DNA from: Nemertoderma westbladi
Lineage: Eukaryota; Animalia; Xenacoelomorpha
Assembly: GCA_032718475.1 (NCBI GenBank)
Contig: JAUCBJ010002753.1
Span: forward strand, 28,499 to 92,498
Direction of reading: 5' to 3'
Length of the DNA stretch: 64,000 nucleotides
Position 1 is the stretch's first letter. Each line of letters begins with the position of its first letter. Shown here in pieces: positions 1 through 52,089 of this stretch. A program made the translations under genes and the position numbers. The notes beneath the pieces were generated by a model, which saw only the letters and a program-made list of their open reading frames with translations, had not been told where the DNA came from and did no database searches.

Positions 1-3000
1 GGTGTTAGCACCAACGTGGCTCGATTCTAAACACAGGTAGGGGTGTTAGCACCAACATGGCTCGATTCTAAAAATAGGTAGAGGTGTTAGCACTACTTGG
101 CTCGATTCTAAACACAGGTAGGGGTGTTAGCACCAACGTGGCTCGATTCTAAACACAGGTAGGGGTGTTAGAACCACGTGGCTCCTTTTTAGCACCACTT
201 AGCTCGATTCTAAACACAGGTAGGTGTGTTAGCACCATTTGGCTCGATTCTAAAAATAGGTAGGGGTGTTAGCACCACGTGGCTCCTTTCTAGCACCACT
301 TGCCTCGATTCTAAATACAGGTAGGGGTGTTAGCACCACTTAGCTCGATTCTAAACACAGGTAGGGGTGTTAGCACCACTTGACTCGATTCTAAACACAG
401 GTAGAGGTGTTAGCACCAACGTGGCTCGATTCTAAACACAGGTAGGGGTGTTAGAACCACGTGGCTCCTTTCTAGCACCACTTGGCTCGATTCTAAACAC
501 AGGTAGGGGTGTTAGCACCAACGTGGCTCGATTCTAAACACAGGTAGGGGTGTTAGAACCACGTGGCTCCTTTCTAGCACCACTTGGCTCGATTATAAAC
601 ACAGGTAGGTGTGTTAGCACCACTTGGCTCGATTCTAAACACAGGTAGGGGTGTTAGCATCAACGTGGCTCGATTCTAAACACAGGTAGGGGTGTTAGCA
701 CCAACATGGCTCGATTCTAAAAATAGGTAGAGGTGTTAGCACCAACGTGGCTCGATTCCAAACACAGGTAGGGGTGTTAGAACCACGTGGCTCCTTTCTA
801 GCACCACTTGGCTCGATTCTAAACACTGGTAGGGGTGTTAGCACCATTTGGCTCGATTCTAAAAATAGGTAGGGGTGTTAGCACCACGTGGCTCCTTTCT
901 AGCACCACTTGGCTCGATTCTAAACACTGGTAGGGGTGTTAGCACCACTTGGCTCGATTCTAAACACAGGTAGGGGTGTTAGCACCAACGTGGCTCGATT
1001 CCAAACACAGGTAGGGGTGTTAGAACCACGTGGCTCCTTTCTAGCACCACTTGGCTCGATTCTAAACACTGGTAGGGGTGTTAGCACCATTTGGCTCGAT
1101 TCTAAAAATAGGTAGGGGTGTTAGAACCACGTGGCTCCTTTCTAGCACCACTTGGCTCGATTCTAAACACTGGTAGGGGTGTTAGCACCATTTGGCTCGA
1201 TTCTAAAAATAGGTAGGGGTGTTAGAACCACGTGGCTCCTTTCTTGCACCACTTGGCTCGATTATAAACACAGGTAGGTGTGTTAGCACCACTTGGCTCG
1301 ATTCTAAACACAGGTAGGGGTGTTAGCATCAACGTGGCTCGATTCTAAACACAGGTAGGGGTGTTAGCACCAACATGGCTCGATTCTAAAAATAGGTAGA
1401 GGTGTTAGCACCAACGTGGCTCGATTCCAAACACAGGTAGGGGTGTTAGAACCACGTGGCTCCTTTCTAGCACCACTTGGCTCGATTCTAAACACTGGTA
1501 GGGGTGTTAGCACCATTTGGCTCGATTCTAAAAATAGGTAGGGGTGTTAGCACCACGTGGCTCCTTTCTAGCACCACTTGGCTCGATTCTAAACACTGGT
1601 AGGGGTGTTAGCACCACTTGGCTCGATTCTAAACACAGGTAGGGGTGTTAGCACCAACGTGGCTCGATTCTAAACACAGGTAGGGGTGTTAGCACCAACA
1701 TGGCTCGATTCTAAAAATAGGTAGAGGTGTTAGCACCACTTGGCTCGATTCTAAACACAGGTAGGGGTGTTAGCACCAACGTGGCTCGATTCTAAACACA
1801 GGTAGGGGTGTTAGCACCACGTGGCTCCCTTCTAGCACCACTTGGCTCGATTCTAAACACAGGTAGGAGTGTTAGCACCACTTGGCTCGATTCTAAACAC
1901 AGGTAGGGGTGTTAGCACCAACGTGGCTCGATTCCAAACACAGGTAGGGGTGTTAGTGTTAGAACCACGTGGCTCCTTTCTAGCACCACTTGGCTCGATT
2001 CTAAACACAGGTAGGGGTATTAGCACCACTTGGCTCGATTCTAAAAATAGGTAGGGGTGTTAGCACCACGTGGCTCCTTTCTAGCACCACTTGGCTCGAT
2101 TCTAAACACTGGTAGGGGTGTTAGCACCACTTGGCTCGATTCTAATCACAGGTAGGGGTGTTAGCACCAACGTGGCTCGATTCTAAACACAGGTAGGGGT
2201 GTTAGCACCAACATGGCTCGATTCTAAAAATAGGTAGAGGTGTTAGCACCACTTGGCTCGATTCTAAACACAGGTAGGGGTGTTAGCACCAACGTGGCTC
2301 GATTCTAAACACAGGTAGGGGTGTTAGCACCACGTGGCTCCTTTCTAGCACCCCTTGGCTCGATTATAAACACAGGTAGGAGTGTTAGCACCACTTGTCT
2401 CGATTCTAAACACAGGTAGGGGTGTTAGCACCAACGTGGCTCGATTCTAAACACAGGTAGGGGTGTTAGAACCACGTGGCTCCTTTCTAGCACCACTTGG
2501 CTCGATTCTAAACACAGGTATGGGTGTTAGCACCACTTGGCTCGATTCTAAAAATAGGTAGGGGTGTTAGCACCAACGTGGCTCGATTCTAAACACAGGT
2601 AGGGGTGTTAGAACCACGTGGCTCCTTTCTAGCACCACTTGGCTTGATTCTAAACACAGGTAGGTGTGTTAGCACCACTTGGCTCGATTCTAAACACAGG
2701 TAGGGGTGTTAGCACCAACGTGGCTCGATTCCAAACACAGGTAGGGGTGTTAGCACCACGTGGCTCCTTTCTAGCACCACTTGGCTCGATTCTAAACACA
2801 GGTAGGGGTGTTAGCACCAACGTGGCTCGATTCTAAACACAGGTAGGGGTGTTAGCACCAACGTGGCTCGATTCTAAACACAGGTAGGGGTGTTAGCACC
2901 ACTTGGCTCGATTCTAAACACAGGTAGGGGTGTTAGCTCCACGTGGCTCCTTTCTAGCACCACTTGGCTCGATTCTAAACACAGGTAGGGGTGTTAGCAC

Positions 3001-3495
3001 CAACGTGGCTCGATTCTAAACACAGGTAGGGGTGTTAGCACCAACGTGGCTCGATTCTAAACACAGGTAGGGGTGTTAGCACCAACGTGGCTCGATTCTA
3101 AACACAGGTAGGGGTGTTAGCACCACTTGGCTCGATTCTAAACACAGGTAGGTGTGTTAGCACCAATGTGGCTCGATTCTAAACACAGGTAGGTGTGTTA
3201 GCACCAACGTGGCTCGATTCTAAGGACAGGTAGGGGTGTTAGCACCACTTGGCTCGATTCTAAACACAGGTAGGTGTGTTAGCACCAACATGGCTCGATT
3301 CTAAACACAGGTAGGTGTGTTAGCACCAACGTGGCTCGATTCTAAACACAGGTAAGGGTGTTAGAACCAAAGTGGCTCGATTCTAAACACAGGTAGGGGT
3401 GTTAGCACCACTTGGCTCGATTCTAAACACAGGTAGGTGTGTTAGCACCAACGTGGCTCGATTCTAAGCAAAGGTGGGGGTGTTAGCACCAATGT
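1..3495. repeat. Minisatellite, 40-41 bp unit (GGTGTTAGCACCA[AC/CT]..TGGCTCGATTCTAAACACAGGTAGG) interleaved with a ~21 bp sub-unit; truncated by window start
   Basis: Unit starts at 1 and again at 42; continues with variants to ~3495. Confidence 0.97.
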
Positions 3496-3736
3496 GATGT
3501 CACATATCTCCAGTGCCACAACAAATTTTGTAACACTTCCATTGAATCTCAGTTTCTGAGATTATTGTCGAAAATTCATGTTATGTAGTGTGAATTATAA
3601 TCAGAGGTTAATGTGAATTATTTATTAATAATTTTGTTGATAATATGGTTTATTATAAGTGTATAAGCTTAAAACTTCAGTTTATATAATTTCCTAAATA
3701 TTATTTTTTAATAATTAGTAATTATGCGTTAATTAG

Positions 3737-3952
3737 GTATAATGATACATATGACCCTTGTGAACTCGGTGCGGGTCAGGTTCATGAGATGCTCAAATCT
3801 AAAGCTAGAGGGCGCTTCCATGATTTGTCACGTGCGTTCGGAGCACTGGTCGCACGTGATGGTGGTTACATCACGAAGAAACACTTCCAGCGGATGTTGT
3901 GGCAGTTCAACTTGCCTATGACTCCGGGCGAATTCGATAAGCTCTGGAGGCG
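3737..3952 (+). CDS. EFCAB6: EFCAB6-like coding exon A (YNDTYDPCELGAGQVHEMLKSK...FDKLWR)
   Basis: Open frame; donor CG|gtgagt at 3953; phase joins exon B (R-YDADGAG). Acceptor aattag|g at 3736 is less certain; cag|g at 3779 is an alternative. Confidence 0.75.
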
Positions 3953-5314
3953 GTGAGTTTAATATGGTTGGCTATTTGAAAATATGTCGCGAAATCTATG
4001 TAATTATTTTACATAATTACAAATAGCCAACCTGCGTCAACGGATTGGTTCTGTGTGCAGGCAGGTAATGCTGCTTGTATCAAGGAATCGTTTGGCCCAG
4101 GCATGGGAGTCTTACAGAGATAATTATGGGCCCTAGATTCGGCATCCATTGTCATTTGTCATTTCCATAGTATTTCCTTACCAGTTTTAATGTGATAATT
4201 TTTTTTTATTATTATTTTAATTTTTTTTTATTTTTTTCTTTCAGTTTGTGATATCTGCAAATTCTTACTCGTCCTATTAACGCTTTACCTTTATATTCTC
4301 TTATATCTTACTGTGGTTTTTAAAATTTAATATTAATTTGTGTAATTTATAGGCCTATTTGGTTTCGTAATATTTTGGTATAATTTAGTGTATTTTAACC
4401 ATTCATCTTTCCTAATATGTTGATTAAAATTTGTGTAATTTAGACAAACGTGTATGAAATTGTGCTGTACACTTTGTGAACTGTATGTATTATTATTATT
4501 TATTCATTTATTAATTCACAACGATTAACAAATACAAAAATTAATACTGACATTATTTTTATTCTTAAATTGTTACTTTTTCGCTCGAATATACTAGTGG
4601 TTAAACGGGATCAGACTCTTCGGGATTTCCGGGATCGGGACCGGGATTATCACTCTCGGGATCCCGATTTTCGGCATCGGGATTCGAATTTTGAATTCGA
4701 TTTTCTTAAAGTTTTCAGTATATTATATTACTGTGTTCGTATAAAACGGATTTTTGGCGAAATTATATCACTTTATTTCATACTGCTGAAATATTTTGTC
4801 TGATAAAATATAATAAAATTTATTTATAGTTGATTACTGGAATCCAGTAATCCGACAATTCGATGTAATCAATAGATTTCTCTTCATCGCGATTCTCTCG
4901 TCCCTTTATTAACCTCGCTGGCGTTCGTTAAATTAAATGCCTCGGGAATAATGAAAAAAAGTTCTACCTTTTTTTTTTTTTTTAATAAAGATTCTTATTT
5001 CCAGTAAAATAATGCAATTTAGCTATCAGCATTAGGAATTATTGTTGAAAGGGAAATTTTGTGAAATAAGATTTTGTATTGCAGGAAAGATTCTTCCCCT
5101 ATTGAACTCTTGATAATTAACCTAGCTCGCTTCGCAAAGACTACATCACAGTGTCAGGGGGAAAATACCCCTTTGTTTTCCGTGTAATAATAACTAATTA
5201 TTTATCTTTTATCTTTCAACGTATAATAGATAAATATCGATGTATTTGGAGAAAGTTTCTCACAATTTTGTTTATCGTTTACTTCATATATTCGCATTTT
5301 GTTTCTCCGTTTAG

Positions 5315-5545
5315 CTACGATGCGGACGGGGCTGGTAAACTTTCCTTCAAGGCTTTCCAACAGCTCCTCGGGCTGGAGTTCTCGCCTGGGGACAACCACG
5401 GCGTGTCTCGTCGGATAGCCGAAGGTAGTGCGGAGGCGTTCACGGTCCATCTAGCTGGGCAGGAGGAGCGCCAGGAAGGAATGGCGGTCCAACAGATGAG
5501 AGCGACAAGTATACTCACCGCCCGGGAGGTAGAGGAACACCTCAA
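5315..5545 (+). CDS. EFCAB6: EFCAB6-like exon B (YDADGAGKLSFKAFQ...EEHL)
   Basis: Pyrimidine tract + ttag acceptor, AA|gtgagt donor, EF-hand-like loop DADGAGKLSFKAF, phase consistent with both neighbours. Confidence 0.88.
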
Positions 5546-5695
5546 GTGAGTTGCATATTGTCCTCATATTGTCCTGGACCTTATAGTCTTTATTATCCGC
5601 ACTTTGCGGACACTACAGGGGATATTTTAAAGAAAGAAAATTATGATAATTTTTTTTATCAAACATAATAATTTATTCGTTTAATATTATCGCAG

Positions 5696-5851
5696 GGATC
5701 GTTTTAGAGATAATTACCAGGACCTCCACGCCGCCTTTAGGAAGGTCGACCTCAATAAAGACGGATTCTTGTCAGTGCAAGAATTCCAGAAAGTTCTCGC
5801 GGATATGAATTACATTATGGATATGGAGACCTTCATCGAATTACTCGAAAG
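5696..5851 (+). CDS. EFCAB6: EFCAB6-like exon C with canonical EF-hand DLNKDGFLSVQE
   Basis: cgcag acceptor, AG|gtatgt donor, EF-hand loop. Confidence 0.9.
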
Positions 5852-6334
5852 GTATGTTACCGTGCTTTATGCGAACAGCTCTTTGTACACCAGATATTCC
5901 AAGATATTCAATAGTGTTATGGTTATTGTCATGGAACCAGAGGCTCTTGGATTTTATTCTAGAATATATTTTAATAAACACAATTTAGATATTTTCTACA
6001 GTAGGCCTTTCTGATATTCGAATTGCTAATATAATATTAATCACATTGAATCGGTAATAGTTAATTTTAGAGGTTGTTAAATTTATATTTTCAGTCTCGG
6101 ATCATTAATTCAATAATTATCAATTAATTTATCGAGCTGAATTTTTCAGAGTAGATACCTAAGATCCGAGGAATAACATCGAATTCTACACTCATCATCA
6201 TTCTCATCAGTTATATGGCTATAGTACTCTATGCTGATTGCCTGTATATATTTTATAACATATAACATAATAACACTTAGTGTTATATGTCATGAGCAAA
6301 AAGTCTCAAAGACTACTTACTACATTGGTTCAAG

Positions 6335-6525
6335 GCATTCTAGAACCGTGGAAAATGTCCTAGAACATTGCAAAATATTATAGAACAGTGCTAAATGTTC
6401 TAGAACAGTTCAAAAGCTTCTAGAATAGTGCACAATCTTCTATAGCAGTTCAAAGGGTTCTATATAGTGCCAATTGTTTTATAAAAGTTCAAAAGGTTCT
6501 AGAATAGTGCAAAATGTTCTAGTGC
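6335..6525. repeat. Diverged ~20-21 bp tandem repeat with TTCTAGAA core
   Basis: Recurring ttctagaa(c/t)agt(g/t)caaaa units. Confidence 0.65.
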
Positions 6526-7224
6526 AGGGTAAATGATATTTTTAATTCTATTTATCCGGTTTAGTTTGTATTTATGAATGTGCATGTAGTATATCTACCA
6601 ATTACAAAAAGTAATTACTATTATTATGATGTAGTGCAGGGAGACCTCAAGTGACAATATTATAATATATAAACCACAGTTTTAGCAAGCTTTCACACAC
6701 AGGGCTTCTTCCGGCTAAGAGTACAATAAAATTGAGCACCGAAAAAGCTTGGAAAATCTACGTGAAAGCTAGCTAGAACTGTGGGCTATTTATTTGTAGT
6801 CATTTGAGGTCTCCCCGCATTAGTAATAGTAATCACGATCACACTAGTGGCGAGAGCGGGTCGGTATTTGTATACTGATTACTAAAAGCAGTGTATGAAT
6901 TCATGGTTTCCTGTGTCACATGTTATTCCTGTAGGACCTAGGCAAGTACTTACTCTGAGTAATTCAACTTTATAAACATTTACTTGATATATTTCACTAT
7001 ACATTTTTGGGATTAATCTGCGATAAGTTTATTCTCAACAGCTGTAACTTTTTGAGTCGGTAAGTTTAGATTTTGCTTGAATTGTGTGACATTATTTCCT
7101 TAACTGGATCTTAAACATTTTATAGGAAAAAGCTCAGTCTGATCAATGAAATCAAACTTTAATAATGTATTACGGTAAATTGTTTATATGTTTTAAATAT
7201 TTTACGGTAAATATTTTAGTCTTA

Positions 7225-9082
7225 TATAGAAATATTTGACCGTTACAGGCTAGGTTTATAGAAACATTTGTCCGTTACAGGCTAGGTTTATAAAAACATT
7301 TGTCCGTTACAGGCTAGGTTTATAGAAACATTTGTCCGTTACAGGCTAGGTTTATAAAAACATTTGTCCGTTACAGGCTAGGTTTATAGAAGCATTTGTC
7401 CATTACATGCTAGGTTTATAGAAACATTTGTCCGTTACAGGCTAGGTTTATAGAAACATTTGTCCATTACAGGCTAGGTTTATAAAGACATTTGTCCGTT
7501 ACAGGCTAGGTTTATAGAAGCATTTGTCCGTTACAGGCTAGGTTTATATAAACATTTGTCCGTTACAGGCTAGGTTTATAGAAACATTTGTCCATTACAG
7601 GCTAGGTTTATAAAGACATTTATCCGTTACAGGCTAGGTTTATAAAAACATTTGTCCGTTACAGGCTAGGTTTATAGAAGCATTTGTCCATTACATGCTA
7701 GGTTTATAGAAACATTTGTCCGTTACAGGCTAGGTTTATAGAAACATTTGTCCATTACAGGCTAGGTTTATAAAGACATTTGTCCGTTACAGGCTAGGTT
7801 TATAGAAGCATTTGTCCGTTACAGGCTAGGTTTATATAAACATTTGTCCGTTACAGGCTAGGTTTATAGAAACATTTGTCCATTACAGGCTAGGTTTATA
7901 AAGACATTTATCCGTTACAGGCTAGGTTTATAGAAACATTTGTCGGTTACAGGCTAGGTTTATATAAACATTTGTCCGTTACAGGCTAGGTTTATAGAAG
8001 CATTTGTCCATTACATGCTAGGTTTATAAAGACATTTGTCCGTTACAGGCTAGGTTTATAGAAACATTTGTCCGTTACAGGCTAGGTTTATATAAACATT
8101 TGTCCGTTACAGGCTAGGTTTATAGAAGCATTTGTCCATTACATGCTAGGTTTATAAAGACATTTGTCCGTTACAGGCTAGGTTTATAGAAACATTTGTC
8201 CGTTACAGGCTAGGTTTATAGAAGCATTTGTCCATTACAGGCTAGGTTTATAGAAGCATTTGTCCATTACATGCTAGGTTTATAAAGACATTTGTCCGTT
8301 ACAGGCTAGGTTTATAGAAACATTTGTCCGTTACAGGCTAGGTTTATAGAAGCATTTGTCCATTACAGGCTAGGTTTATAAAGACATTTGTCCGTTACAG
8401 GCTAGGTTTATAGAAACATTTGTCCGTTACAGGCTAGGTTTATAGAAACATTTGTCCGTTACAGGCTAGGTTTATATAAACATTTGTCCGTTACAGGCTA
8501 GGTTTATAGAAGCATTTGTCCATTACAGGCTAGGTTTATAAAGACATTTGTCCGTTACAGGCTAGGTTTATAGAAACATTTGTCCGTTACAGGCTAGGTT
8601 TATAGAAACATTTGTCCGTTACAGGCTAGGTTTATATAAACATTTGTCCGTTACAGGCTAGGTTTATAGAAACATTTGTCCGTTACAGGCTAGGTTTATA
8701 GAAGCATTTGTCCATTACAGGCTAGGTTTATAAAGACACTTGTCCGTTACAGGCTAGGTTTATAGAAACATTTGTCCGTTACAGGCTAGGTTTATAGAAG
8801 CATTTGTCCATTACAGGCTAGGTTTATAAAGACATTTGTCCGTTACAGGCTAGGTTTATAGAAGCATTTGTCCATTACAGGCTAGGTTTATAAAGACATT
8901 TGTCCGTTACAGGCTAGGTTTATAGAAACATTTATCCGTTACAGGCTAGGTTTATATAAACATTTGTCCGTTACAGGCTAGGTTTATAGAATCATTTATC
9001 CGTTACAGGCTAGGTTTATAGAAACATTTGTCCGTTACAGGCTAGGTTTATATAAACATTTGTCCGTTACAGGCTAGGTTTA
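7225..9082. repeat. 32 bp minisatellite (TAGAAACATTTGTCCGTTACAG|GCTAGGTTTA), ~58 copies, spanning the exon D acceptor
   Basis: First CAG ends at 7248, last at 9072 = 57 x 32 bp. Confidence 0.97.
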
Positions 9083-9268
9083 CCAACAAACGAATCTCGC
9101 TTTTCCTACACTCGTTTTCTGGAGGCTATAGACGAAGGAATGCATCCGCGGTTCAAACGCCAAGCCGTTTTCGCAGAAGGTCCTGAACATTTTGAACATA
9201 TGAGTGTCAGCAATGCGATGGCGAAGCTCGCTGAGAGAACTACGAACAACATGAAAGCTATCGTTTCT
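9073..9268 (+). CDS. EFCAB6: EFCAB6-like exon D (LGLPTNESRFSYTRFLEAIDEG...NMKAIVS)
   Basis: AG from exon C + G gives Arg; frame is open to TCT|gtgagt and joins exon E in phase 0. Confidence 0.85.
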
Positions 9269-10007
9269 GTGAGTTTCCGTTACTTAGTCCCGGACTTATT
9301 GTTTATTGTTCTGAAACGTTATTTGTTTTTTGCTTTCTAGTAATTATTTAGTAGGCTGTGTTCGTTATATTTCTCGCAACAGTAGGAGTCGGTTTACTAG
9401 CGGAGCGCAAAGAGGCAAGTGAAGTAGACAAGAAGTACTTTTATCAACGGGATTTATGTAATTATATTCAAAAATTGAAACATATATTTCCGACTTTCCG
9501 ATGAGGCACTGTTTAAAATAAAATTAATTAAATATAAATAATTTCATTTACAGGTACCGTACAGTGTTTATCGCCAATACTACTGTTTGATATGCTGATT
9601 GATACCGGAACAACAGCACAGTATATATTGTATATGAATCTGAAACTAAAATTTTACAATAGCTGTAGTACCGGTACCTTGGTTCACTTATTGTAATAAT
9701 TTGAGTGTGAGCGGCAGATAAGGGGATATTTTCGACGCAATAAAAATTCATATTAATTCGCCGGATATTAATTTGCCAACATGGGATTTGCGTCCAGTTT
9801 CCCCCCGGACATAAAATATAAACTTTTTTGACGTTGTTGAAACTGACAGAGGTAATAAATGTTTCAACTTTTTAATAAATAATATTAATAATAATGCTTA
9901 AAATTGGACCTCTTCAATCACATCCCTACTTCATTAGGACTATATACACATAAATTCTCCCTTGGTTTAACACAACTGGTCTGGCCGTTTACTATTTATT
10001 TATTTAG

Positions 10008-10199
10008 GCTTTCCATTCGTTTGATAAAACTGGAGTGGGACGCGTAAAGGGCCAGGATTTCCGACGAATCCTCGATAACTTCTGTTTCCGTCTCAATGAC
10101 TCCCAATGGAACGGTCTGCTCTCTCATCTACACGTCTTTGACGATCTCACACTCAACTACAACGATTTCCTCGAAACATTTGTGTCTGAAGATTCAGTT
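10008..10199 (+). CDS. EFCAB6: EFCAB6-like exon E (AFHSFDKTGVGRVKGQDFRRILDNFCF...SEDSV)
   Basis: tttag acceptor, GTT|gtaagt donor, EF-hand-like helix-loop-helix. Confidence 0.9.
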
Positions 10200-10394
10200 G
10201 TAAGTAATCTGTGTAAGAATAGGTATCAGGTAACCCAGAATATATGTTGTAATTCGAGTAAAGTATTGTCGATGTTTAATAATCTAACTCGAGCACTAAG
10301 GCCCCTGATGAACATTATACGATACACCATATATAGTCATCATCAATAAACTAAATACAATTATAGTGAAACTGCACTTAATTCAAAGCATTAT

Positions 10395-10549
10395 TTACAG
10401 GTACATCATTGTGTGCAAATTAGCAGCACTTTGCAGCGTTATGACTCGAGTATATTTATGTACCGAGCGAGCGCAGCGAGGGAGGTTTACATAAATAAAA
10501 AGTGTCTTTAACGCTGAAAAGTGACCTTTGCAAGCAATGATTTATGTAA
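10395..10549. mobile_element. ~155 bp imperfect palindrome (MITE/foldback-like) with central CGAGCGAGCGCAGCGAGG
   Basis: Left arm atcattgtgtgcaaa..cactttgcagcgtta pairs with right arm taacgctgaaaagtg..tttgcaagcaatgat; inner tatttatgta/tacataaata. Confidence 0.6.
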
Positions 10550-10789
10550 TTTTGTTACATTATGTCAACTTATCAGCGTTCGGTACGCGGAGAAAGTATT
10601 TACTATCATTCATTACCGTTTGGGAATTTAAATTGGGTTCATTATCGTACCTTGTTTTACTTTAATGTAACAAAGTTTAGTAGTCGAACTTTGTTGCACT
10701 TGTTGTGGTTCGAATGGAGGCACAGAATTAGTCCCACGGCTTGGGCACACTCGGACAGCCAAGCCAAGGATGCAGTTTAAGGCTGCATT

Positions 10790-12400
10790 TAGGCCCCTGA
10801 TCAGGCAGAACTCGGATAATCTGGATGAGCTTATTAATAAGCAGGGTGAGGCCATCTACAATGCCGATGCCAAGAGGCAGGTAATCGCTCAACCTGGTAA
10901 GAAAAGCCAATAAACCATCAATGACCAGGCTGAATCTCTAGCTGACCGCCTCAACGGAAGGGCCCAGGCTGAATCTCCAGCTGACCGCCTCAACGGAAGG
11001 GCCCAGGCTGAATCTCCAGCTGACCGCCTCAACGGAAGGGCCCAGGCTGAATCTCCAGCTGACCGCCTCAACGGAAGGGCCCAGGCTGAATCTCCAGCTG
11101 ACCGCCTCAACGGAAGGGCCCAGGCTGAATCTCCAGCTGACCGCCTCAACGGAAGGGCCCAGGTTGAATCTCCAGCTGACCGCCTCAACGGAAGGGCCAA
11201 GGTTGAATCTCCAGCTGACCGCCTCAACGGAAGGACCCAGGCTGAATCTCCAGCTGACCGCCTCAACGGAAGGGCCCAGGTTGAATCTCCAGCTGACCGC
11301 CTCAACGGTAGGGCCCAGGCTGAATCTCCAGCTGACCGCCTCAACGGAAGGACCCAGGCTGAATCTCCAGCTGACCGCCTCAACGGAAGGGCCCAGGTTG
11401 AATCTCCAGCTGACCGCCTCAACGGAAGGACCCAGGCTGAATCTCCAGCTGACCGCCTCAACGGAAGGGCCCAGGTTGAATCTCCAGCTGACCGCCTCTA
11501 CGGGAGGGTCCAGGCTGAATCTCCAGCTGACCGCCTCAACGGAAGGACCCAGGCTGAATCTCCAGCTGACCGCCTCAACGGAAGGACCCAGGCTGAATCT
11601 CCAGCTGACCGCCTCAACGGAAGGGCCTAGGCTGAATCTCCAGCTGACCGCCTCAACTTAAGGGCCCAGGCTGAATCTCCAGCTGACCGCCTCAACGGAA
11701 GGGCCCAGGCTGAATCTCCAGCTGACCGCCTCAACGGAAGGGCCCAGGCTGAATCTCCAGCTGACCGCCTCAATGGAAGGGCCACTTTGAGAAGCTCCTA
11801 AACAATTATTGCCTGATAACTTTGTGATACATTGTCTGCTTATGTCTGTACTCCCAAATATTCCCATTGGCGACATCTCCTTTGCTGAAGTCAAGGCTGC
11901 TTCGAAGAGCATCAACACCAATTGTGCCAGTGGATTAGATTACGTATATCCTGAGGTCTTTAAAATACCTGATATAGCGAGTATAGATATAACTAAGAGA
12001 GTCCCACAAGAAATGAAAACAAATAAGTTGGTGCCAGTTCTCAAGAAGGGCAACCTAACACTCTATGGTTCTTTTCGGGGAATCTCGTCGATCTCGATTG
12101 CTGCAAAGCTATACAATATAATTCTATTAAATCGCATCAGGGATCCCATTGGGAGACTGCTCCGTGGAAATCGGAATGGGTTCCGTAAAGGTCGTGGGAC
12201 CATGGAGCCCATTTAGGGAAGGATAATTGAAGAGTTATTTGAAGAAAAAGAAAGATAAACAGACATCTGGTTGCTATGTTTGGTGAATTCTTCAAGGCCT
12301 TAGATTTTCGATTAAGTTTCTCGCTCACGTATGTTCATCATACTTGATTATATGGGATTCCTGGGAAAATTATTGCTACTCTATCAGAACACTACAATAA
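10790..12400 (+). mobile_element. Decayed RTE-clade LINE fragment in an intron, interrupted by a 39 bp array
   Basis: ASGLD..PEVFK, LVPVLKKGNL, FRGISSISIAAKLYN..LLNRIR, NGFRKGR motifs; stops and frameshifts; left boundary approximate. Confidence 0.85.
10925..11785. repeat. 39 bp minisatellite (GGCCCAGGCTGAATCTCCAGCTGACCGCCTCAACGGAAG), ~22 copies
   Basis: Period 39, giving 13-aa repeats in the ORF track. Confidence 0.96.
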
Positions 12401-12687
12401 TGGTTCTACTATGGCATCTGATTAGTATCAAAGCCCAATATTTTTAAACATATTGAATTTTCATCACATAAATTCAATCAATATTGTGCAATTATTGATT
12501 CAATATTGAATTAATGTGTTGGCAGGTTGGGCAAATATTGAATCAATATGTTAACATGGTGGCGGGTCTGTCAATTACCGACCGAACCTGGGAAAGGACG
12601 AGTTGAAATAAGGTGAACATTGGAACATCCGACCGACCAGGCTAGCAGTAAGAAAAAGCCACAAAATAATATCGTACCAAAATCCCA

Positions 12688-12915
12688 TCTTGACGTAGTG
12701 GTTAAATCATATATCTTTAATTCACATATCTCCCCGGAGGTCGTGAGTTCGATCCCCGTATGGGGGCCAGGGTAGTTTTCGTACGAATGCTTTAAAGGTA
12801 CTAACCAGGGAGCATCTTTGTATTGCATCCTTAAATGGTAGCTAAATGAGTACTGGAGTTTCCTCTTGGGAGTATAGTTCTGGGGGGACCGCACTGGAAA
12901 TACGTCGCCAGTTTT
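12688..12915 (+). mobile_element. Degenerate tRNA-derived SINE
   Basis: A-box-like gacgtagtggtt (~12692), B-box-like gagttcgatccc (~12745), downstream taaatgagtactgg core-like motif. Confidence 0.5.
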
Positions 12916-13280
12916 TGTGGGTTATCTTTTTTTTTTAATTCGATTAAAGTAAGGGGATTGGGGTGTTAAATATTAAGGGCGATGGTATACAAACATGCTC
13001 TATATCACTCTTATCTTGGAATCACAATTCATTCATGTGATTCGATTATTCCAGAGGAAATAATTGTTTCTTAAAACTGTAACATAATTATTAACGGAAT
13101 TAATTCAGATTTATTTATTATATTGAAAAAAAAATAATTATCAATCTGCGAACACATGAATAGGATAAAATCTTTTTATTTTAAACTCATTATCTACATT
13201 AATAAATTATACTAAATCTTTATGTATATTTACGTGAGGTTTATTATATATAAAGCCAAAATATCTCGTTACATTACCAG

Positions 13281-13517
13281 GAGAAACGGGAATGGAGGGG
13301 CGAGTGCTACAGAAGTAGAGAGGGTCCGGCTAATCGCATGTCGACAATGATGCCTATGGATCAGGTTGAAGGTCGGTTAAGGGAGTCCGTGACCGCCCGC
13401 TTCTATAACTTCGTGCAGGCCTTCAACACTGTCGACTACGGCAGACTCGGTGTTGTCACCAGAGACGACTTCAGGGATGTCGTCAATAAAGTCGCTTTCC
13501 GAATCAGCGATGAACAG
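13281..13517 (+). CDS. EFCAB6: EFCAB6-like exon F (EKREWRG...AFNTVDYGRLGVVTRDDFR...ISDEQ)
   Basis: ccag acceptor, CAG|gtaaat donor, phase 0/0. Confidence 0.9.
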
Positions 13518-13732
13518 GTAAATCGTTTGAACTCACTTAGTGTGCGGAAAGTCCTGGTGCACTACCGGTATCAGTTGCACAGTAGGGAAACATAAACTAT
13601 TTATGTATTTTAATCCGACGTTCTATATTTCAGTTTGGGACATTCTATATTTTAATTCAAATTTTGCATTTTATTCTGACGTTTTGTATTTTAATACACG
13701 TTTGGTATTTTAATCTGGCGTTTTCTTTTCAG

Positions 13733-13936
13733 TTCGACGTTCTGTATTCCAAATTGCCGGTTAACGAGTTTGGTAATGTTGATTACATGGACTTCCTAAA
13801 GAGTTTCACAAACCGACCGCAAAGTTCCGCGTCGTCAGCAGCAGACAGTCGCCGGGTGGATAGCAGACAGTCCGGCCCTAGTAGGGGGCCGGACGAGCGG
13901 CCGAAAACGGCACAGGGATTAGTTAAACATGAAGAG
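13733..13936 (+). CDS. EFCAB6: EFCAB6-like exon G (FDVLYSKLPVNEFGNVDYMDFLKSF...KHEE)
   Basis: ttttcttttcag acceptor, GAG|gttagt donor. Confidence 0.88.
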
Positions 13937-14670
13937 GTTAGTTTGGTACGTGATCCTAGAGTTCAAATAGGGTGGAGCAATTCGATCACGAGTTAATGAT
14001 CTCGAGAAATTGGAATGAGGAAATTCATTGGATACACAATATAGAGTTGAGCGAGCATAAGCACTGAGCAGCCATTACATCTGATGTGCATTTTCCATAG
14101 AAATAATTACTCTTCCTGGTTTTTAACGTTGTGTATGATGATGTAATTAACAAGTGAGGTAATAACAAATTATTATTTTTATTTAAATAGTTATATCTAA
14201 TGGCCTAAGCCTATATCTCATTAGTTGTTTAGAATTAGTTCAAGCTGATACTTGGCAGAAATATTCTTACATTACTGCACCATGACCCGTAATATAGTGT
14301 CATTTTCTGATGATACGGACATCCCCCCCCCAAAAAAAAAAATTTATACAGATCTTTATCGTATTGCTTGAAATGTGAAACACAATAATCAATTTAGCAA
14401 CCACAATGTGACTACTCAAAATAGAATAACAATTTATAATTTATAATAATAATATTTATACACATATAGGAGATAAGATAAATAAAGCACAGGGCTAAAA
14501 AGTTAGTGGCTGAAAATGGACAAACAGACAGACAGACCGACATATAGCAAACCCTTGAATCTACTGACAAGTCAGTAAAGTGCACTGTCCAGACCCGGCC
14601 GCGCTGCCTTGCTCTGTCTCCAAGACCAAGTTACATGTATCTGAAATATCATTTCCATTTGCTTCTCTAG

Positions 14671-14953
14671 AATGGAACGGCTTTACCTGAACGACCGGAG
14701 ACGGCTGCTTCTAGCAGCTCGCGGCCACACACAGCGGGACTTCGTCCCAGTGCTGGGCCCTGTCCCTGCACCGGGTCCCGTCCCAGTAAAGGTTACCGTC
14801 CCGTATCCCACGCCACAGATACGTTAGTGGATGCGGAGAATACAGAGTCGGCGCTAAAGGAGAAAGTATGTAAGAACTGGAAAGCGATCAAGGCTCAGTG
14901 TCGCAACCACGACGTAGATGTTACTGGGGAGATCGATGTGAAACAATTCCAAG
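14671..14953 (+). CDS. EFCAB6: EFCAB6-like exon H (NGTALPERPETA...NWKAIKAQCRNHDVDVTGEIDVKQFQ); not in ORF track
   Basis: cttctctag acceptor, open frame translated by hand, G|gtttgt donor, phase 1 matches exon I. Confidence 0.85.
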
Positions 14954-14995
14954 GTTTGTATTAATTTATAATAGTTATATAATTACAGTAATTGG

Positions 14996-17900
14996 CAAAC
15001 AGCGCTATGTAGCAGGATCAAACAGCGCTATGTAGCAGGATCAAACAGCGCTATGTAGCAGGATCAAACAGCGCATGTAGCAGGATCAAACAGCGCTATG
15101 TAGCAGGATCAAACAGCGCATGTAGCAAGATCAAACAGCGCTACGTAGCAGCATCCAACAGCGCATGTAGCCGGATCAAACAACGCTATGTAGCAGGATC
15201 AAACAGCGCTATGTAGCAGGATCAAACAGCGCTATGTAGTAGAATCCAACAGCGCATGTAGCAGGATCAAACAGCGCATGTAGCAGGATCAAACAGCGCT
15301 ATGTAGCAGGATCAAACAGCGCTATGTAGCAGGATCAAACAGCGCTATGTAGCAGGGTCAAACAGCGCATGTAGCAGGATCAAACAGCGCATGTAGCAAG
15401 ATCAAACAGCGCTACGTAGCAGCATCCAACAGCGCATGTAGCAGGATCAAACAACGCTATGTAGCAGGATCAAACAGCGCTATGTAGCAGGATCAAACAG
15501 CGCTATGTAGTAGAATCCAACAGCGCATGTAGCAGGATCAAACAGCGCATGTAGCAGGATCAAACAGCGCTATGTAGCAGGATCAAACAGCGCTATGTAG
15601 CAGGATCAAACAGCGCTATGTAGCAGGATCCAACAGCGCATGTAGCAGGATCAAACAACGCTATGTAGCAGGATCAAACAGCGCTATGTAGCAGGATCAA
15701 ACAGCGCTATGTAGTAGAATCCAACAGCGCATGTAGCAGGATCAAACATCGCATGTAGCAGGATCAAACAGCGCTATGTAGCAGGATCAAACAGCGCCAT
15801 GTAGCAGGATCAAACTGCGCATGTAGCAGGATCAAACAGCGCTATGTAGCAGGATCAAACAACGCTATGTAGCAGGATCAAACAGCGCTATGTAGCAGGA
15901 TCAAACAGCGCTATGTAGTAGAATCCAACAGCGCGTTGTAGCAGGATCAAACAGCGCATGTAGCAGGATCAAACAGCGCTATGTAGCAGGATCAAACAGC
16001 GCTATGTAGCAGGATCAAACAGCGCTATGTAGCAGGATCAAACACCGCTATGTAGCAGGATCAAACAGCGCTATGTAGCAGGATCAAACAGCGCATGTAG
16101 CAGGATCAAACAGCGCTATGTAGCAGGATCAAACAGCGCTATGTAGCAGGATCAAACAGCGCTATGTAGCAGGATCAAAGAGCGCATGTAGCAAGATCAA
16201 ACAGCGCAATGTAGCAGGATCCAACAGCGCATGTAGCAGGATCAAACAACGCTATGTAGCAGGATCAAACAGCGCTAATTAGCAGGATCAAACAGCGCTA
16301 TGTAGTAGAATCCAACAGCGCATGTAGCAGGATCAAACAGCGCATGTAGCAGGATCAAACAGCGCTATGTAGCAGGATCAAACAGCACTATGTAGCAGGA
16401 TCAAACAGCGCTATGTAGCAGGATCAAACAGCGCTATGTAGCAGGATCAAACAGCGTTATGTAGCAGGATCAAACAGCGTTATGTAGCAGGATCAAACAG
16501 CGCTATGTAGCAGGATCAAACAGCGCTATGTAGCAGGATCAAACAGCGCTATGTAGCAGGATCAAACAGCGCTATGTAGCAGGATCAAACAGCGCTATGT
16601 AGTAGGATCAAACAGCGCTATGTAGCAGGATCAAACAGCGCTATGTAGCAGAATCAAACAGCGTTATGTAGCAGGATCAAACAGCGCTATGTAGCAGGAT
16701 CAAACAGCGTTATGTAGCAGGATCAAACAGCGTTATGTAGCAGGATCAAACAGCGCTATGTAGCAGGATCAAACAGCGCTATGTAGCAGGATCAAACAGC
16801 GTTATGTAGCAGGATCAAACAGCGTTATGTAGCAGGATCAAACAGCGCTATGTAGCAGGATCAAACAGCGCTATGTAGCAGGATCAAACAGCGCTATGTA
16901 GCAGGATCAAACAGCGCTATGTAGCAGGATCAAACAGCGCTATGTAGCAGGATCAAACAGCGCTATGTAGCAGGATCAAACAGCGCTATGTAGCAGGATC
17001 AAACAGCGCTATGTAGCAGGATCAAACAGCGCTATGTAGCAGGATCAAACAGCGCTATGTAGCAGGATCAAACAGCGCTATGTAGCAGGATCAAACAGCG
17101 CTATGTAGTAGAATCCAACAGCGCATGTAGCAGGATCAAACAGCGTTATGTAGCAGGATCAAACAGCGTTATGTAGCAGGATCAAACAGCGCTATGTAGC
17201 AGGATCAAACAGCGCTATGTAGCAGGATCAAACAGCGCTATGTAGCAGGATCAAACAGCGCTATGTAGCAGGATCAAACAGCGCTATGTAGCAGGATCAA
17301 ACAGCGCTATGTAGCAGGATCAAACAGCGCTATGTAGCAGGATCAAACAGCGCTATGTAGCAGGAGCAAACAGCGCTATGTAGCAGGATCAAACAGCGTT
17401 ATGTAGCAGGATCAAACAGCGTTATGTAGCAGGATCAAACAGCGCTATGTAGCAGGATCAAACAGCGCTATGTAGCAGGATCAAACAGCGCTATGTAGCA
17501 GGATCAAACAGCGCTATGTAGTAGGATCAAACACCGCTATGTAGCAGGATCAAACAGCGCTATGTAGCAGGATCAAACAGCGCTATGTAGTAGGATCAAA
17601 CACCGCTATGTAGCAGGATCAAACAGCGCTATGTAGCAGGATCAAACAGCGCTATGTAGCAGGATCAAACAGCGCTATGTAGTAGGATCAAACAGCGCTA
17701 TGTAGTAGGATCAAACAGCGCTATGTAGCAGGATCAAACAGCGTTATGTAGCAGGATCAAACAGCGTTATGTAGCAGGATCAAACAGCGCTATGTAGCAG
17801 GATCAAACAGCGCTATGTAGCAGAATCAAACAGCGTTATGTAGCAGGATCAAACAGCGCTATGTAGCAGGATCAAACAGCGCTATGTAGTAGGATCAAAC

Positions 17901-19243
17901 AGCGCTATGTAGCAGGATCAAACAGCGCTATGTAGCAGGATCAAACAGCGCTATGTAGCAGGATCAAACAGCGCTATGTAGCAGGATCAAACAGCGCTAT
18001 GTAGTAGGATCAAACAGCGCTATGTAGCAGGATCAAACAGCGCTATGTAGCAGAATCAAACAGCGTTATGTAGCAGGATCAAACAGCGCTATGTAGCAGG
18101 ATCAAACAGCGCTATGTAGCAGGATCAAACAGCGCTATGTAGCAGAATCAAACAGCGTTATGTAGCAGGATCAAACAGCGCTATGTAGCAGGATCAAACA
18201 GCGCTATGTAGTAGGATCAAACAGCGCTATGTAGCAGGATCAAACAGCGCTATGTAGCAGGATCAAACAGCGCTATGTAGCAGGATCAAACAGCGCTATG
18301 TAGCAGGATGAAACAGCGCTATGTAGCAGGATCAAACAGCGCTATGTAGCAGGATCAAACAGCGCTATGTAGCAGAATCAAACAGCGTTATGTAGCAGGA
18401 TCAAACAGCGCTATGTAGCAGGATCAAACAGCGCTATGTAGCAGGATCAAACAGCGCTATGTAGCAGGATCAAACAGCGCTATATAGCAGGATCAAACAG
18501 CGCTATGTAGTAGGATCAAACAGCGCTATGTAGCAGGATCAAACAGCGCTATGTAGCAGGATCAAACAGCGCTATGTAGCAGGATCAAACAGCGCTATGT
18601 AGCAGGATCAAACAGCGCTATGTAGCAGAATCAAACAGCGCTATGTAGCAGGATCAAACAGCGCTATGTAGCAGGATCAAACAGCGCTATGTAGCAGGAT
18701 CAAACAGCGCTATGTAGCAGGATCAAACAGCGCTATGTAGCAGGATCAAACAGCGCTATGTAGCAGGATCAAACAGCGCTATGTAGCAGGATCAAACAGC
18801 GCTATGTAGCAGGATCAAACAGCGCTATGTAGCAGGATCAAACAGCGCTATGTAGCAGGATCAAACAGCGCTATGTAGCACGATACAACAGCGCTATGTA
18901 GCAGGATCAAACAGCGCTATGTAGCAGGATCAAACAGCGCTATGTAGCAGGATCAAACAGCGCTATGTAGCAGGATCAAACAGCGCTATGTAGCAGGATC
19001 AAACAGCGCTATGTAGCAGGATCAAACAGCGCTATGTAGCAGGATACAACAGCGCTATGTAGCAGGATCAAACAGCGCTATGTAGCAGGATCAAACAGCG
19101 CTATGTAGCAGGATCAAACAGCGTTATGTAGCAGGATCAAACAGCGCTATATAGCAGGATCAAACAGCGCTATGTAGCAGGATCAAACAGCGCTATGTAG
19201 CAGGATCAAGCAGCGTTATGTAGCAGGATCAAACAGCGCTATA
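14996..19243. repeat. 23 bp minisatellite (CAAACAGCGCTATGTAGCAGGAT), ~185 copies, filling most of an intron
   Basis: Direct periodicity; 22 bp variants mainly in the 5' part. Confidence 0.97.
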
Positions 19244-19465
19244 TAGTATAATGTGTAGCATAATGAATATTTTGTGGATGATTATGTTGGTATAGCAATA
19301 AAACTGTGAGAACTAAAAATAAAGTTAATTTTAAATAATATAATTTTTTTCTATGTTTTTTGTCTAATAATTAATTATAGTTTAATTAATAGGTTTATGA
19401 TATTATTATAATTTTATTTTTTATGTTGTTAAATTTTCTTGCACGTTTATTTTTGCAATTGGTAG

Positions 19466-19653
19466 ATATTATGGAATCTTTCAACGTTTATCTGCCACGA
19501 GATGAGTACAGCCGTTTATCCGATATGTACGATGTTAACTCTACCGGTAGGTTCAACTACCTCAACTTCCTCAAACACTTTGTTATTCATCTGAAGGAGA
19601 AGGAATGGAAGTCGCACCCAACCCGTGGGAAACTTTATACACCGAAAGAAAAG
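19466..19653 (+). CDS. EFCAB6: EFCAB6-like exon I (DIMESFNVYL...YDVNSTGRFNYLNFLKHF...KEK)
   Basis: gtag acceptor, AAG|gtgaga donor, EF-hand-like loop. Confidence 0.88.
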
Positions 19654-19853
19654 GTGAGACTTTAATTATCTGTTGTTGTTTGTTTGTTACAATGTCAGCT
19701 TGTTTCGGCTAAGTATTTAAAGTAATGTATTTCAGCTTTATTTAACTGTGAACTGTATTCACCTCTAAGTATTTAAATTTTATCTGCGATCGAGCTATGT
19801 ATTTAATTCCTAATTTTATTTCAGATAAGTATTTAACTTTTTATTTGTTTCAG

Positions 19854-20135
19854 TTGACCTCAGGCGGCCCCGACTCTGATGAGTTATATGACGTGATGGT
19901 GCGGCTGCGGGAATCGGTGGTCGGACAGTGGAAGCGAATGAGACGGACTTTCCGAACGCACGACGTTCGCGTAACGGGATACGTTACCGGGACACAATTC
20001 CGTAACGTTATGAAACAGTACGGGGTTAACCTGACCGAAGACGAACTCTTTCATCTGATGACGTACTACGACAACGACCTCAGTGGTAGACTGCCTTACA
20101 ACGACTTTCTGCGAGCATTCCTAGCTAATACTTAG
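19854..20135 (+). CDS. EFCAB6: EFCAB6-like terminal coding exon ending YNDFLRAFLANT*
   Basis: tttcag acceptor; C-terminal EF-hand pair; YNDFLRAFL matches the EFCAB6 C-terminus as I recall it. Confidence 0.9.
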   Translation: MTSGGPDSDELYDVMVRLRESVVGQWKRMRRTFRTHDVRVTGYVTGTQFRNVMKQYGVNLTEDELFHLMTYYDNDLSGRLPYNDFLRAFLANT

Positions 20136-23381: not shown

Positions 23382-24039
23382 AACTAGGTTTTTAGTGTAT
23401 CATTGGGAAAGGGTTAAGGTAATGAAGAGCCAAAGGCGGTTCTCTAGTTTGCAGAAATGTGGACAACCAGGAAAGTTTCCTTTCAATTTGGGTTTAATGG
23501 CTTTGAATAACGCCTCTTTCATTATCTATATAACAATCAATGTCTATTCATATCAATGGCCGTAAGGCCAACACTATTTCCCGTCATTATGAGTGAAAGG
23601 AAAACCAACCCCATGCGAGGGAGTGCCGCATACATTAGGGCCGGCCAACCCAGTATAACACAATGGCTTGGGGCTGCGTTACAAACCCTATGCAACCGCG
23701 TGGATCCACTTTCAATAGATGTGCCGTTATAGTATTGTTGAGCTGATAATGAGATCCAGCCCCATGATCCACTAATGGAAGTGAGATCAATGAACCATCC
23801 CTATCAGAAAGGCCTTTAATGTAGTCCAATATGCCTATTTTTTATCGGTTATAGATATTATTGCTAATAATGTAGCTTAGCGTAATTAATGGTTTTCTTT
23901 TGGCGACCCCCCCCATGCTGCGTTGAGAGTATATCACTAATTATTGTCAAGTTGGCGTAAAATAAGTCGTGAAATAAAGTATTTAATGTGTTCCTATTGT
24001 TTTGCATTGTAGACTAACGGCGAGTTATATGTCATGGAT

Positions 24040-46813: not shown

Positions 46814-47014
46814 TGTTATATGTGAATAATAATCAGTTTGATCGAGTTATTATATTACAGTTTAACCAATATATATAGTCAGACAGTTGAATCCAGTTAG
46901 ATATATAATCATGAACTGTAGCCTACTGATTACCGGTACGCGGTAACCATACTACCGTACCTATATCAGTAACCAACACATACCGTCATCCAGGTACTGT
47001 CTACAGTATTAACA
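46814..47014 (-). repeat. 3' LTR (201 bp)
   Basis: Matches 52091-52291 with one mismatch seen. Confidence 0.96.
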
Positions 47015-47036
47015 ATCTTCCGTTTCTTTCCTTTTT
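47015..47036 (-). promoter_or_regulatory. Polypurine tract
   Basis: Minus strand AAAAAGGAAAGAAACGGAAGAT abutting the 3' LTR. Confidence 0.85.
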
Positions 47037-47195
47037 AGTTTGTTCCACAAATAAATTCTAACTATAAAAAAAAACTATTCTGGCCATAAGTCAATTATGG
47101 TCTTAAGTTTCAACTTGTACAAATACAAATCGGATAGTCATTCAATTAGTTACTTTCAGTTTGTTACATTCATTGAAATTTATGCTATCGGCTTG

Positions 47196-52077: not shown

Positions 52078-52089
52078 GCTCTGCTACCA
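52078..52089 (-). promoter_or_regulatory. Primer-binding site complementary to the 3' end of initiator tRNA-Met
   Basis: Plus strand gctctgctacca = minus TGGTAGCAGAGC, 1 nt from the 5' LTR. Confidence 0.9.

What the first reader, a model, noticed from the sequence alone, without database searches (positions are those of the whole stretch)
7225..9082. A splice acceptor amplified ~58 times; only the last copy is productive
Seen: the 32 bp unit is the last ~22 nt of the intron plus the first 10 nt of exon D (..TTTGTCCGTTACAG|GCTAGGTTTA). Only the final copy continues into coding sequence (G CTA GGT TTA CCA ACA). Upstream copies read G CTA GGT TTA then TAG or TAA, or reach TAG in the next unit for the TAT variant, so using them creates a premature stop. 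About 5 copies have CAG>CAT. Inference: the spliceosome must pass ~50 near-identical acceptors, so the choice depends on exon definition, or the array acts as a copy-number-tunable NMD sink.
Basis: partly seen in the sequence, partly recalled or inferred. Interest (0 to 1): 0.85.

Follow-up and report, generated by a model that had tools for sequence, protein, structure and literature searches.

The report
Splice-acceptor "mirage" repeat in EFCAB6
A 32-base piece covering the end of an intron and the start of the next exon of an animal's EFCAB6 gene is repeated 58 times and only the last copy leads into the rest of the exon; the spare copies are likely skipped, which would make this an ordinary new example of a repeat type already known from lancelets ("mirage").

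Summary
There are 58 units at strict 32-bp spacing (22 intron + 10 exon bases), 53 with CAG and 5 with CAT, and all 57 upstream copies hit a stop within 3 or 11 codons. The host is an EFCAB6 orthologue. Splicing to the last copy gives an open 727-residue frame that aligns without a gap across the junction (R-L-G-L-P exact in sea cucumber and Ciona); skipping the exon frameshifts. A second, donor-side array of the same kind (at least 66 copies) lies in the same gene at 1-3496. This is a "mirage", a minisatellite spanning an exon-intron border, described in amphioxus Adh3, globin, troponin C and PGBD5, with human parallels (F7, CBS 844ins68), where normal mRNA is reported. Best reading: a tolerated replication by-product, last copy likely chosen by exon definition, leakage likely cleared by NMD. 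No RNA, reads or second allele were available, so acceptor use is inferred. A tuned NMD sink is untested and not needed. One oddity: the 10 exon-derived bases never vary (post hoc p about 0.01). The scan's earlier notes report many such arrays in this genome (up to 63 kb) and in other animals; this one is small.

The parts
7225..9082 (+). 32-bp minisatellite, 58 copies; each unit = last 22 nt of intron + first 10 nt of exon D of EFCAB6; 14 unit variants
7227..9050 (+). 57 upstream copies: 52 decoy CAG acceptors and 5 with CAG changed to CAT; each leads to a premature stop if used
9051..9082 (+). Copy 58: the only productive acceptor (AG at 9071-9072) and the first 10 nt of exon D
5696..5851 (+). 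Exon C of EFCAB6 (156 nt), ends in phase 2; donor at 5852
   Evidence: borders set by GT-AG and homology, not by RNA
5852..9072 (+). Intron C-D, 3221 nt; 1397 nt without the 57 extra units
9073..9268 (+). Exon D of EFCAB6 (196 nt, not a multiple of 3); donor at 9269
3737..20135 (+). Ten 3' coding exons of the EFCAB6 orthologue (3737-3952, 5315-5545, 5696-5851, 9073-9268, 10008-10199, 13281-13517, 13733-13936, 14671-14953, 19466-19653, 19854-20135); open 727-aa frame to the stop
1..3496 (+). Second boundary-spanning array in the same gene: 40/41-bp unit = end of the preceding exon + its donor; at least 66 donor copies; runs off the left end of the window, so the authentic first copy is not seen

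Best explanation
The array is a minisatellite made of the EFCAB6 intron end and the first 10 bases of exon D, likely grown by replication slippage and unequal exchange, and the spliceosome likely joins exon C to the last copy so that the spare copies leave with the intron. Shown: the anatomy, the stops after every upstream copy, the open and conserved frame through copy 58, and the variant structure of the array. Inferred: (1) origin by a first small duplication followed by block-wise expansion; (2) choice of copy 58 because it alone is followed by the full exon and lies nearest the exon D donor (196 nt across the exon, against 228 to 2020 nt for the others), while no donor as strong as the gene's own lies inside the array; (3) the fraction that splices to an upstream copy, probably mostly copies 55-57, carries a stop far upstream of later junctions and would be removed by nonsense-mediated decay, a cost rather than a control device.
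For: Frame: exons 3737-20135 joined through copy 58 translate to 727 aa with the only stop at the end. Conservation: in 36 chosen orthologues of the 102 proteins then held, the alignment has no gap at the junction; the junction residue is R or K in 33 of 36, glycine at +2 in 32 of 36, and R-L-G-L-P is exact in 2 of 36 (Apostichopus, Ciona). Exon D aligns collinearly to Asterias residues 1061-1127, directly after exon C. Skipping exon D gives a stop 13 codons on, so no productive alternative was found. History: 14 variants, mean pairwise difference 2.1 of 32 bases, and a 9-unit block present twice (longest block in 2000 shuffles was 6). Acceptor sequence cannot do the choosing: 7 upstream copies equal copy 58, and all 7 copies scored carry a branch-point-like motif at about -23. 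Folding does not single out the last copy (z 0.40; 22 of 57 upstream copies at least as accessible). Precedent: amphioxus BflGb6 has tandem copies of an intron 3' end plus exon start, and RT-PCR suggests mirages do not disturb splicing (PMC3087553); Adh and troponin C mirages give no aberrant mRNAs as cited in PMC3902484; the 68-bp duplication of the CBS intron 7/exon 8 junction is spliced to the distal site (PMC2630376); an exon-centric proximity rule is reported for exon-defined exons (PMC9225289), and both flanking introns here exceed 250 nt. About 26% of the window is large tandem arrays, most not at splice sites, so the genome makes minisatellites freely.
Against: No transcript of this gene was seen, so use of copy 58 and the size of any leak are not measured. 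For 3' splice sites PMC9225289 reports an overall preference for the upstream site that is 'significantly reduced' under exon definition, which is weaker than a rule for the last site; those data are human. The exon D donor is at the weak end of this gene's donors (6.0 on a crude U1-pairing count, range 6 to 8), and the donor-like AG|GT in each unit scores 5.5, not far below. The 10 exon-derived bases are invariant in 58 of 58 copies while 10 of 22 intron-derived positions vary (Fisher p 0.013, post hoc), which pure neutrality does not predict.
Confidence: 0.78

Rival explanations
1. Copy-number-tuned NMD sink: upstream acceptors compete in earnest, so longer arrays send more transcripts to decay and set EFCAB6 dosage.
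For: All 57 upstream copies give a stop at least 191 nt before the exon D donor, with six more introns downstream. 52 keep CAG and 7 are identical to the real site. An intronic VNTR whose expansion goes with exon skipping and lower expression is known for ABCA7 (review table in PMC13196383).
Against: Stops are expected by default when AT-rich intron sequence is read in frame, so they show no design (inference). Published boundary arrays are reported to splice normally. If choice depends on distance to the exon D donor, adding far-upstream copies changes little. The same gene has a second array, and the scan's unchecked notes list such arrays in many housekeeping genes of this genome, which fits a mutational habit better than gene-by-gene control.
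Confidence: 0.07
2. Two-step rescue: exon C joins an upstream copy, the 5 exon bases before the unit's AG|GT act as a micro-exon, and a second splice from that GT to the AG at 9076-9077 rebuilds the identical mRNA (duplication-born intron or ratchet).
For: Each unit holds AG|GT five bases into its exon part, these bases never vary, and the product would equal the normal mRNA (follows from the sequence). A potato gene gained an intron from a duplication across an intron-exon border, with the donor taken from the duplicated exon piece (PMC4974935 abstract); PMC3087553 proposes a similar route for mirages.
Against: The donor lacks purines at +3/+4 and G at +5 and scores below all nine donors of this gene (5.5 against 6 to 8). 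The second step needs the AG at 9077 to beat the CAG five bases upstream, whereas close acceptors strongly favour the upstream one (PMC9225289); using the CAG would add 5 bases and shift the frame.
Confidence: 0.06
3. Assembly artefact: the array is real in kind but its length is wrong, or it was made by the assembler.
For: No reads, second allele or whole genome could be examined. PMC3087553 notes that one mirage was mis-assembled in a draft genome.
Against: 14 variants with regional clustering (CAT type only in copies 6-33, another type only from copy 32 on), exact 32-bp phase, clean unique flanks and no N in the window are what real minisatellite turnover gives; an assembler would not invent the variants.
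Confidence: 0.04
4. The allele is effectively broken: the first acceptor met wins (intron-centric choice) and most transcripts are non-productive, so this EFCAB6 copy is hypomorphic or decaying.
For: Upstream 3' splice sites are generally preferred (PMC9225289). The protein sits on a long branch (1.14) in the tree.
Against: All ten exons keep an open frame with GT-AG borders and 35-40% identity to invertebrate orthologues over about 730 columns, which argues for continuing selection; the long branch could be lineage-wide, and an array this young (about 4% from consensus) would not yet have left decay either way.
Confidence: 0.05

Closest known systems
Amphioxus 'mirage' minisatellites: globin BflGb6 (acceptor side) and BflGb9, Adh3, troponin C, PGBD5 (PMC3087553, PMC3902484; passages read)
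   Same: Head-to-tail copies spanning an exon-intron border; BflGb6 has the same polarity (intron 3' end plus exon start); many but not all units keep the AG; several arrays can occur in one gene (PGBD5 there, EFCAB6 here); unit length 32 bp lies in the 10-72 bp range given for Adh3.
   Different: 58 copies against 3-6 for BflGb6 and 2-7 for PGBD5; host protein does not group closely with the one amphioxus sequence in my tree (about 40% identity); allelic and somatic length instability and normal splicing are reported there and untested here.
Human CBS 844ins68 (PMC2630376, introduction passage read)
   Same: Duplication of an intron/exon junction; the distal site is strongly favoured and normal mRNA results.
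   Different: Two sites rather than 58; 68-bp unit. That paper's text calls the sites 'donor' although the duplicated junction is an acceptor and the study it cites is titled on 3' splice site selection.
Human F7 intron 7 37-bp VNTR (PMC1557585; abstract and discussion read)
   Same: Minisatellite whose end unit spans the exon border; five to nine identical splice sites, only the one next to the exon is used although the others are functional.
   Different: Donor side, so it matches the array at 1-3496 rather than this one; the authors explain it by oriented scanning, not by exon definition alone.
Intron gain by tandem duplication across an intron-exon border, potato RdRp (PMC4974935; abstract read)
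   Same: Duplicated segment crosses an intron/exon border and the upstream exon piece holds a possible donor.
   Different: A single duplication with a new intron detected; here 57 extra units, a weak in-unit donor and no evidence of use.

Membership tests
Mirage minisatellite (amphioxus type) | Tandem, minisatellite-sized repeat | tested here: met
   58 copies of 32 bp, 92% matches
Mirage minisatellite (amphioxus type) | Unit spans an exon-intron border of the host gene, and the end unit is the authentic border | tested here: met
   22 intron + 10 exon bases; copy 58 continues into the conserved exon. Border inferred from homology and frame, not from RNA.
Mirage minisatellite (amphioxus type) | Many but not all units keep the splice dinucleotide | tested here: met
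   53 of 58 CAG, 5 of 58 CAT
Mirage minisatellite (amphioxus type) | Signs of tandem-repeat turnover (local homogenisation, block duplication) | tested here: met
   9-unit block present twice, shuffles reach at most 6 in 2000; variants cluster by region
Mirage minisatellite (amphioxus type) | Length differs between alleles or somatic cells | not testable with these tools
   No genome, reads or second allele
Mirage minisatellite (amphioxus type) | Mature mRNA is spliced normally | not testable with these tools
   No RNA run was listed and no same-species protein came up
Regulated unproductive splicing (AS-NMD switch) | Alternative site creates a premature stop well upstream of a later junction | tested here: met
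   57 of 57 upstream copies stop early; at least 191 nt before the next donor for the copies computed
Regulated unproductive splicing (AS-NMD switch) | Alternative site is used at a measurable, regulated rate and is conserved in relatives | not testable with these tools
   No RNA and no related genomic locus
Recursive splicing / duplication-born micro-exon | AG|GT juxtaposition in the unit | tested here: met
   One per unit, five bases into the exon part
Recursive splicing / duplication-born micro-exon | The GT forms a donor as strong as the gene's own | tested here: inconclusive
   5.5 against 6 to 8 for 9 authentic donors on a crude U1-pairing count whose consensus was recalled
Recursive splicing / duplication-born micro-exon | Intermediates or lariats seen in nascent RNA | not testable with these tools
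   No RNA

The most novel reading that the evidence does not exclude
The spare copies are not inert: the 10 exon-derived bases, invariant in all 58 copies, are kept because each unit supplies the branch point for the next acceptor and an AG|GT re-splicing point, so the array works as a ladder or as a length-dependent valve that sends part of the EFCAB6 message to decay, in an animal whose genome grows satellites out of its own splice junctions gene after gene.
Probability: 0.1. Interest if true: 0.75.

Novelty: new member of a known kind. Interest (0 to 1): 0.27.

Why it matters
As a single locus it adds one more, larger example to a published class and probably does not change the protein. 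Its use is as a test piece: 52 spare CAG acceptors, 7 identical to the real one, at a fixed 32-base step and short enough (1.86 kb) for PCR and a minigene, let one measure directly how 3' splice-site choice falls off with distance from the downstream donor, which the human data I read leave unsettled (PMC9225289). The more interesting question is genome-wide: the same gene carries a donor-side array too, and the scan's unchecked notes list dozens of far larger ones in this genome, so why splice junctions seed satellites here, and at what cost, deserves one joint study rather than locus-by-locus reports.

Tried and rejected
No whole genome is held. The RNA run search for 5300-10250 listed none; that blank is no evidence either way, and no reads could be laid. 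An exact 24-mer of the unit found 0 stretches in metagenome contigs. Searches for a same-species spliced product were blank: exon D against 1.84 billion representatives gave 1 hit at 26% identity, and exon D against longer proteins gave 0 of 24 candidates at E<=1; weak evidence. RNA structure as the selector was rejected (z 0.40; 22 of 57 upstream copies at least as accessible). A stronger last acceptor was rejected as sufficient: copy 58 has the best pyrimidine share (0.59) and longest AG-free zone (25 nt) among the 7 copies scored, but 7 upstream copies have the same sequence. In-frame exon skipping was rejected (stop after 13 codons). Enrichment of arrays at junctions could not be shown from this window: leaving out the index array, 1 clear case among 5 arrays has a rough chance of 0.34-0.43; 1 of 19 junctions in view has near-identical self copies. 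Invariance of the exon part does not recur in the donor-side array (9 of 22 exon and 4 of 10 intron positions vary, with a pattern that fixes some positions). The organism was not identified: in a quick tree of 35 rows (34 of the 36 aligned orthologues; Holothuria and one unnamed row dropped as poorly matching; careful search unfinished) the protein is a long branch outside the well-supported echinoderm+hemichordate, spiralian and cnidarian sets, so my first guess of an echinoderm is not supported; no xenacoelomorph was among the rows. The original mirage paper (Canestro et al. 2002, PMC117041) is not held and is known to me only through the papers citing it. Nine literature searches; the one for EFCAB6 with tandem repeat and splice found 0 papers; subscription journals are mostly outside the library.

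Full report
Observation. The array is as described. Tandem Repeats Finder gives 7225-9082, period 32, 58.1 copies, 92% matches and no indels. A script found 58 anchors at exact 32-base spacing, from 7249 to 9073; 53 follow CAG and 5 follow CAT. A 17-mer across the junction occurs 58 times in the window, only inside the array, against 0.01 expected. In the phase set by the upstream exon, 49 of the 57 upstream copies stop after three codons and 8 after eleven; copy 58 alone reads on.

Host gene. The last exon's translation found three proteins, all named EF-hand calcium-binding domain-containing protein 6 (Asterias, grey seal, Apostichopus). tblastn places them collinearly on ten exons between 3737 and 20135. 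With borders that I set by GT-AG and homology, the exons joined through copy 58 give 727 residues with the only stop at the end. Of 102 proteins then held I aligned 36, the invertebrates and a sample of vertebrates. None has a gap at the exon C/D junction; the junction residue is R or K in 33 of 36, glycine follows at +2 in 32 of 36, and R-L-G-L-P is exact in Apostichopus and Ciona. Exon D is 196 bases long, and skipping it brings a stop after 13 codons. So copy 58 is the only productive acceptor found. The animal is not identified: identity is 35-40% to the best invertebrate orthologues, and a quick tree leaves the protein as a long branch outside the supported echinoderm+hemichordate, spiralian and cnidarian sets, with its place unsure.

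Anatomy and history. The unit is 22 intron bases plus 10 exon bases. There are 14 variants, differing on average at 2.1 of 32 bases; copies 5-13 and 14-22 repeat the same nine-unit string, where 2000 shuffles reach at most six; the CAT type is confined to copies 6-33. This is the pattern of a young minisatellite turned over by block duplication (inference from established minisatellite behaviour) and argues against an assembler's invention, though copy number is unverified without reads. Without the 57 extra units the intron would be 1397 bases, within the 150-4512 range of this gene's introns. About 26% of the window is large tandem arrays, most of them not at a splice site.

A second case in the same gene. 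The 40/41-base array at 1-3496 is the donor-side counterpart: its unit ends the preceding exon and includes the donor, and its translation joins the next exon in phase and matches Asterias residues 853 onward without a gap. At least 66 donor copies lie in the window and the array runs off the left edge. A degenerate 19-base repeat overlaps the acceptor at 13733 and may be an old third case, but its best self match is only 14 of 20. Among the 19 junctions in view only the exon D acceptor has near-identical copies, and this window alone does not show that arrays favour junctions.

How the last copy is likely chosen. Local sequence cannot decide: seven upstream copies equal copy 58 over all 32 bases, and all seven copies scored have a branch-point-like motif near -23, supplied by the exon-derived bases of the unit before (motif recalled). 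Folding does not expose the last copy. What distinguishes copy 58 is that the whole exon follows it and that it is nearest to the exon D donor: 196 bases, against 228, 260 and 292 for the next three and 2020 for the first. Both flanking introns exceed 250 bases, the size above which exon definition is reported to take over, and under exon definition the sites closest across the exon are reported to be favoured (PMC9225289, passages). The support is incomplete: for 3' sites that paper finds the upstream preference reduced rather than clearly reversed (section 9), the data are human, and exon D's donor is among the weakest of the gene on my crude score. Some leak to the nearest upstream copies is therefore likely. 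Such transcripts would carry a stop at least 191 bases before the next donor with six introns still to come, which by the exon-junction rule for NMD (recalled, untested in this animal) marks them for decay. That makes NMD a likely clean-up; nothing here shows it is a control.

Rivals. A tuned sink has a loose precedent in the ABCA7 VNTR (review table, PMC13196383) but no test here, and stops arise by default in AT-rich intron sequence. A two-step route through the AG|GT five bases into each unit would rebuild the same mRNA and has a precedent in potato (PMC4974935 abstract), but the donor scores 5.5 against 6 to 8 for the nine real ones and the second step must pass over a CAG five bases upstream, which close acceptors disfavour. 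One observation remains unexplained: the ten exon-derived bases do not vary in any of 58 copies while 10 of 22 intron-derived positions do (Fisher p 0.013, noticed after the fact). Exchange with the selected last copy, a branch-point role or chance could each give this, and the donor-side array does not show it.

What is known. [quoted passage not shown] PGBD5 and troponin C add cases (PMC3902484, passages). In humans the F7 intron 7 VNTR offers five to nine identical donors of which only the first is used (PMC1557585, abstract and discussion), and CBS 844ins68 duplicates an intron/exon junction and is spliced to the distal site (PMC2630376, passage). The original Adh3 paper was not available. 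This array meets the four structural features of a mirage that I could test; allele instability and normal mRNA could not be tested. A search for EFCAB6 with tandem repeat and splice found no paper in the held library.

Earlier notes of this scan. I reached the mirage reading from the papers before looking. The notes agree: 62 of 79 notes on this genome fit 'splice tandem', with arrays of 150 to about 2,100 copies and up to 63 kb among those shown, several reporting an assembled transcript that uses the authentic end copy and one (GALNS) reporting use of an inner variant copy. Similar arrays were noted in annelids, an abalone, octopods, a shark and a comb jelly. These are unchecked AI notes and I tested none of them; they are leads, not support.

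Verdict. Real, correctly described, and a new, fairly large member of a known kind; small beside others noted in this genome. Most likely a tolerated minisatellite spliced out with the intron (0.78). Interest 0.27, chiefly as a compact test of 3' splice-site choice.

Noticed in passing
window 1-3496 (+): Donor-side mirage of the same EFCAB6 gene: 40/41-bp unit = exon end + donor, at least 66 donor copies, with 61/101-bp higher-order spacing; runs off the window, so its true size and first copy are unseen.
   Followed up: partly
window 13604-13748 (+): Degenerate 19-bp repeat that overlaps the acceptor at 13733; possibly an old, decayed mirage (best junction self match 14 of 20).
   Followed up: partly
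window 7227-9082: The 10 exon-derived bases are invariant in 58 of 58 units while 10 of 22 intron-derived positions vary (post hoc p about 0.013); unexplained.
   Followed up: partly
window 14996-19246 (+): 23-bp satellite, about 186 copies, filling most of a 4.5-kb EFCAB6 intron; starts 42 bases after the donor and does not span a junction.
   Followed up: partly
window 10925-11783 and about 11800-12400 (+): 39-bp (13-codon) repeat, 22 copies, just before a decayed stretch that reads like a LINE reverse transcriptase, inside an EFCAB6 intron (by eye, not searched).
   Followed up: no
window 21092-23381 (+): 29-bp satellite, about 77 copies, each with a CAG|GT motif, 1 kb after the EFCAB6 stop; no adjacent exon recognised; its long ORFs are repeat-derived.
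   Followed up: no
window 32534-35218 (+): Single-exon ORF of 894 aa that looks like a multi-C2H2 zinc-finger protein (by eye, not searched).
   Followed up: no
window about 46740-52290 (-): Apparently near-intact LTR retrotransposon: ORFs 48477-51611 (1044 aa) and 47196-48464 (422 aa) on the minus strand, between direct repeats of roughly 200 bases near 46810-47010 and 52090-52290 (seen by eye).
   Followed up: no
window 24000-25850 (+) and about 53030-53200: Decayed LINE-like reverse transcriptase fragments; a stretch of the first recurs near 53040 (seen by eye).
   Followed up: no
window 54414-56690 and 58744-59655: A very homogeneous AT-rich 34-bp satellite (67 copies, 98% matches) and a 30-bp array interrupted by a duplicated unique block; no host exon recognised.
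   Followed up: no
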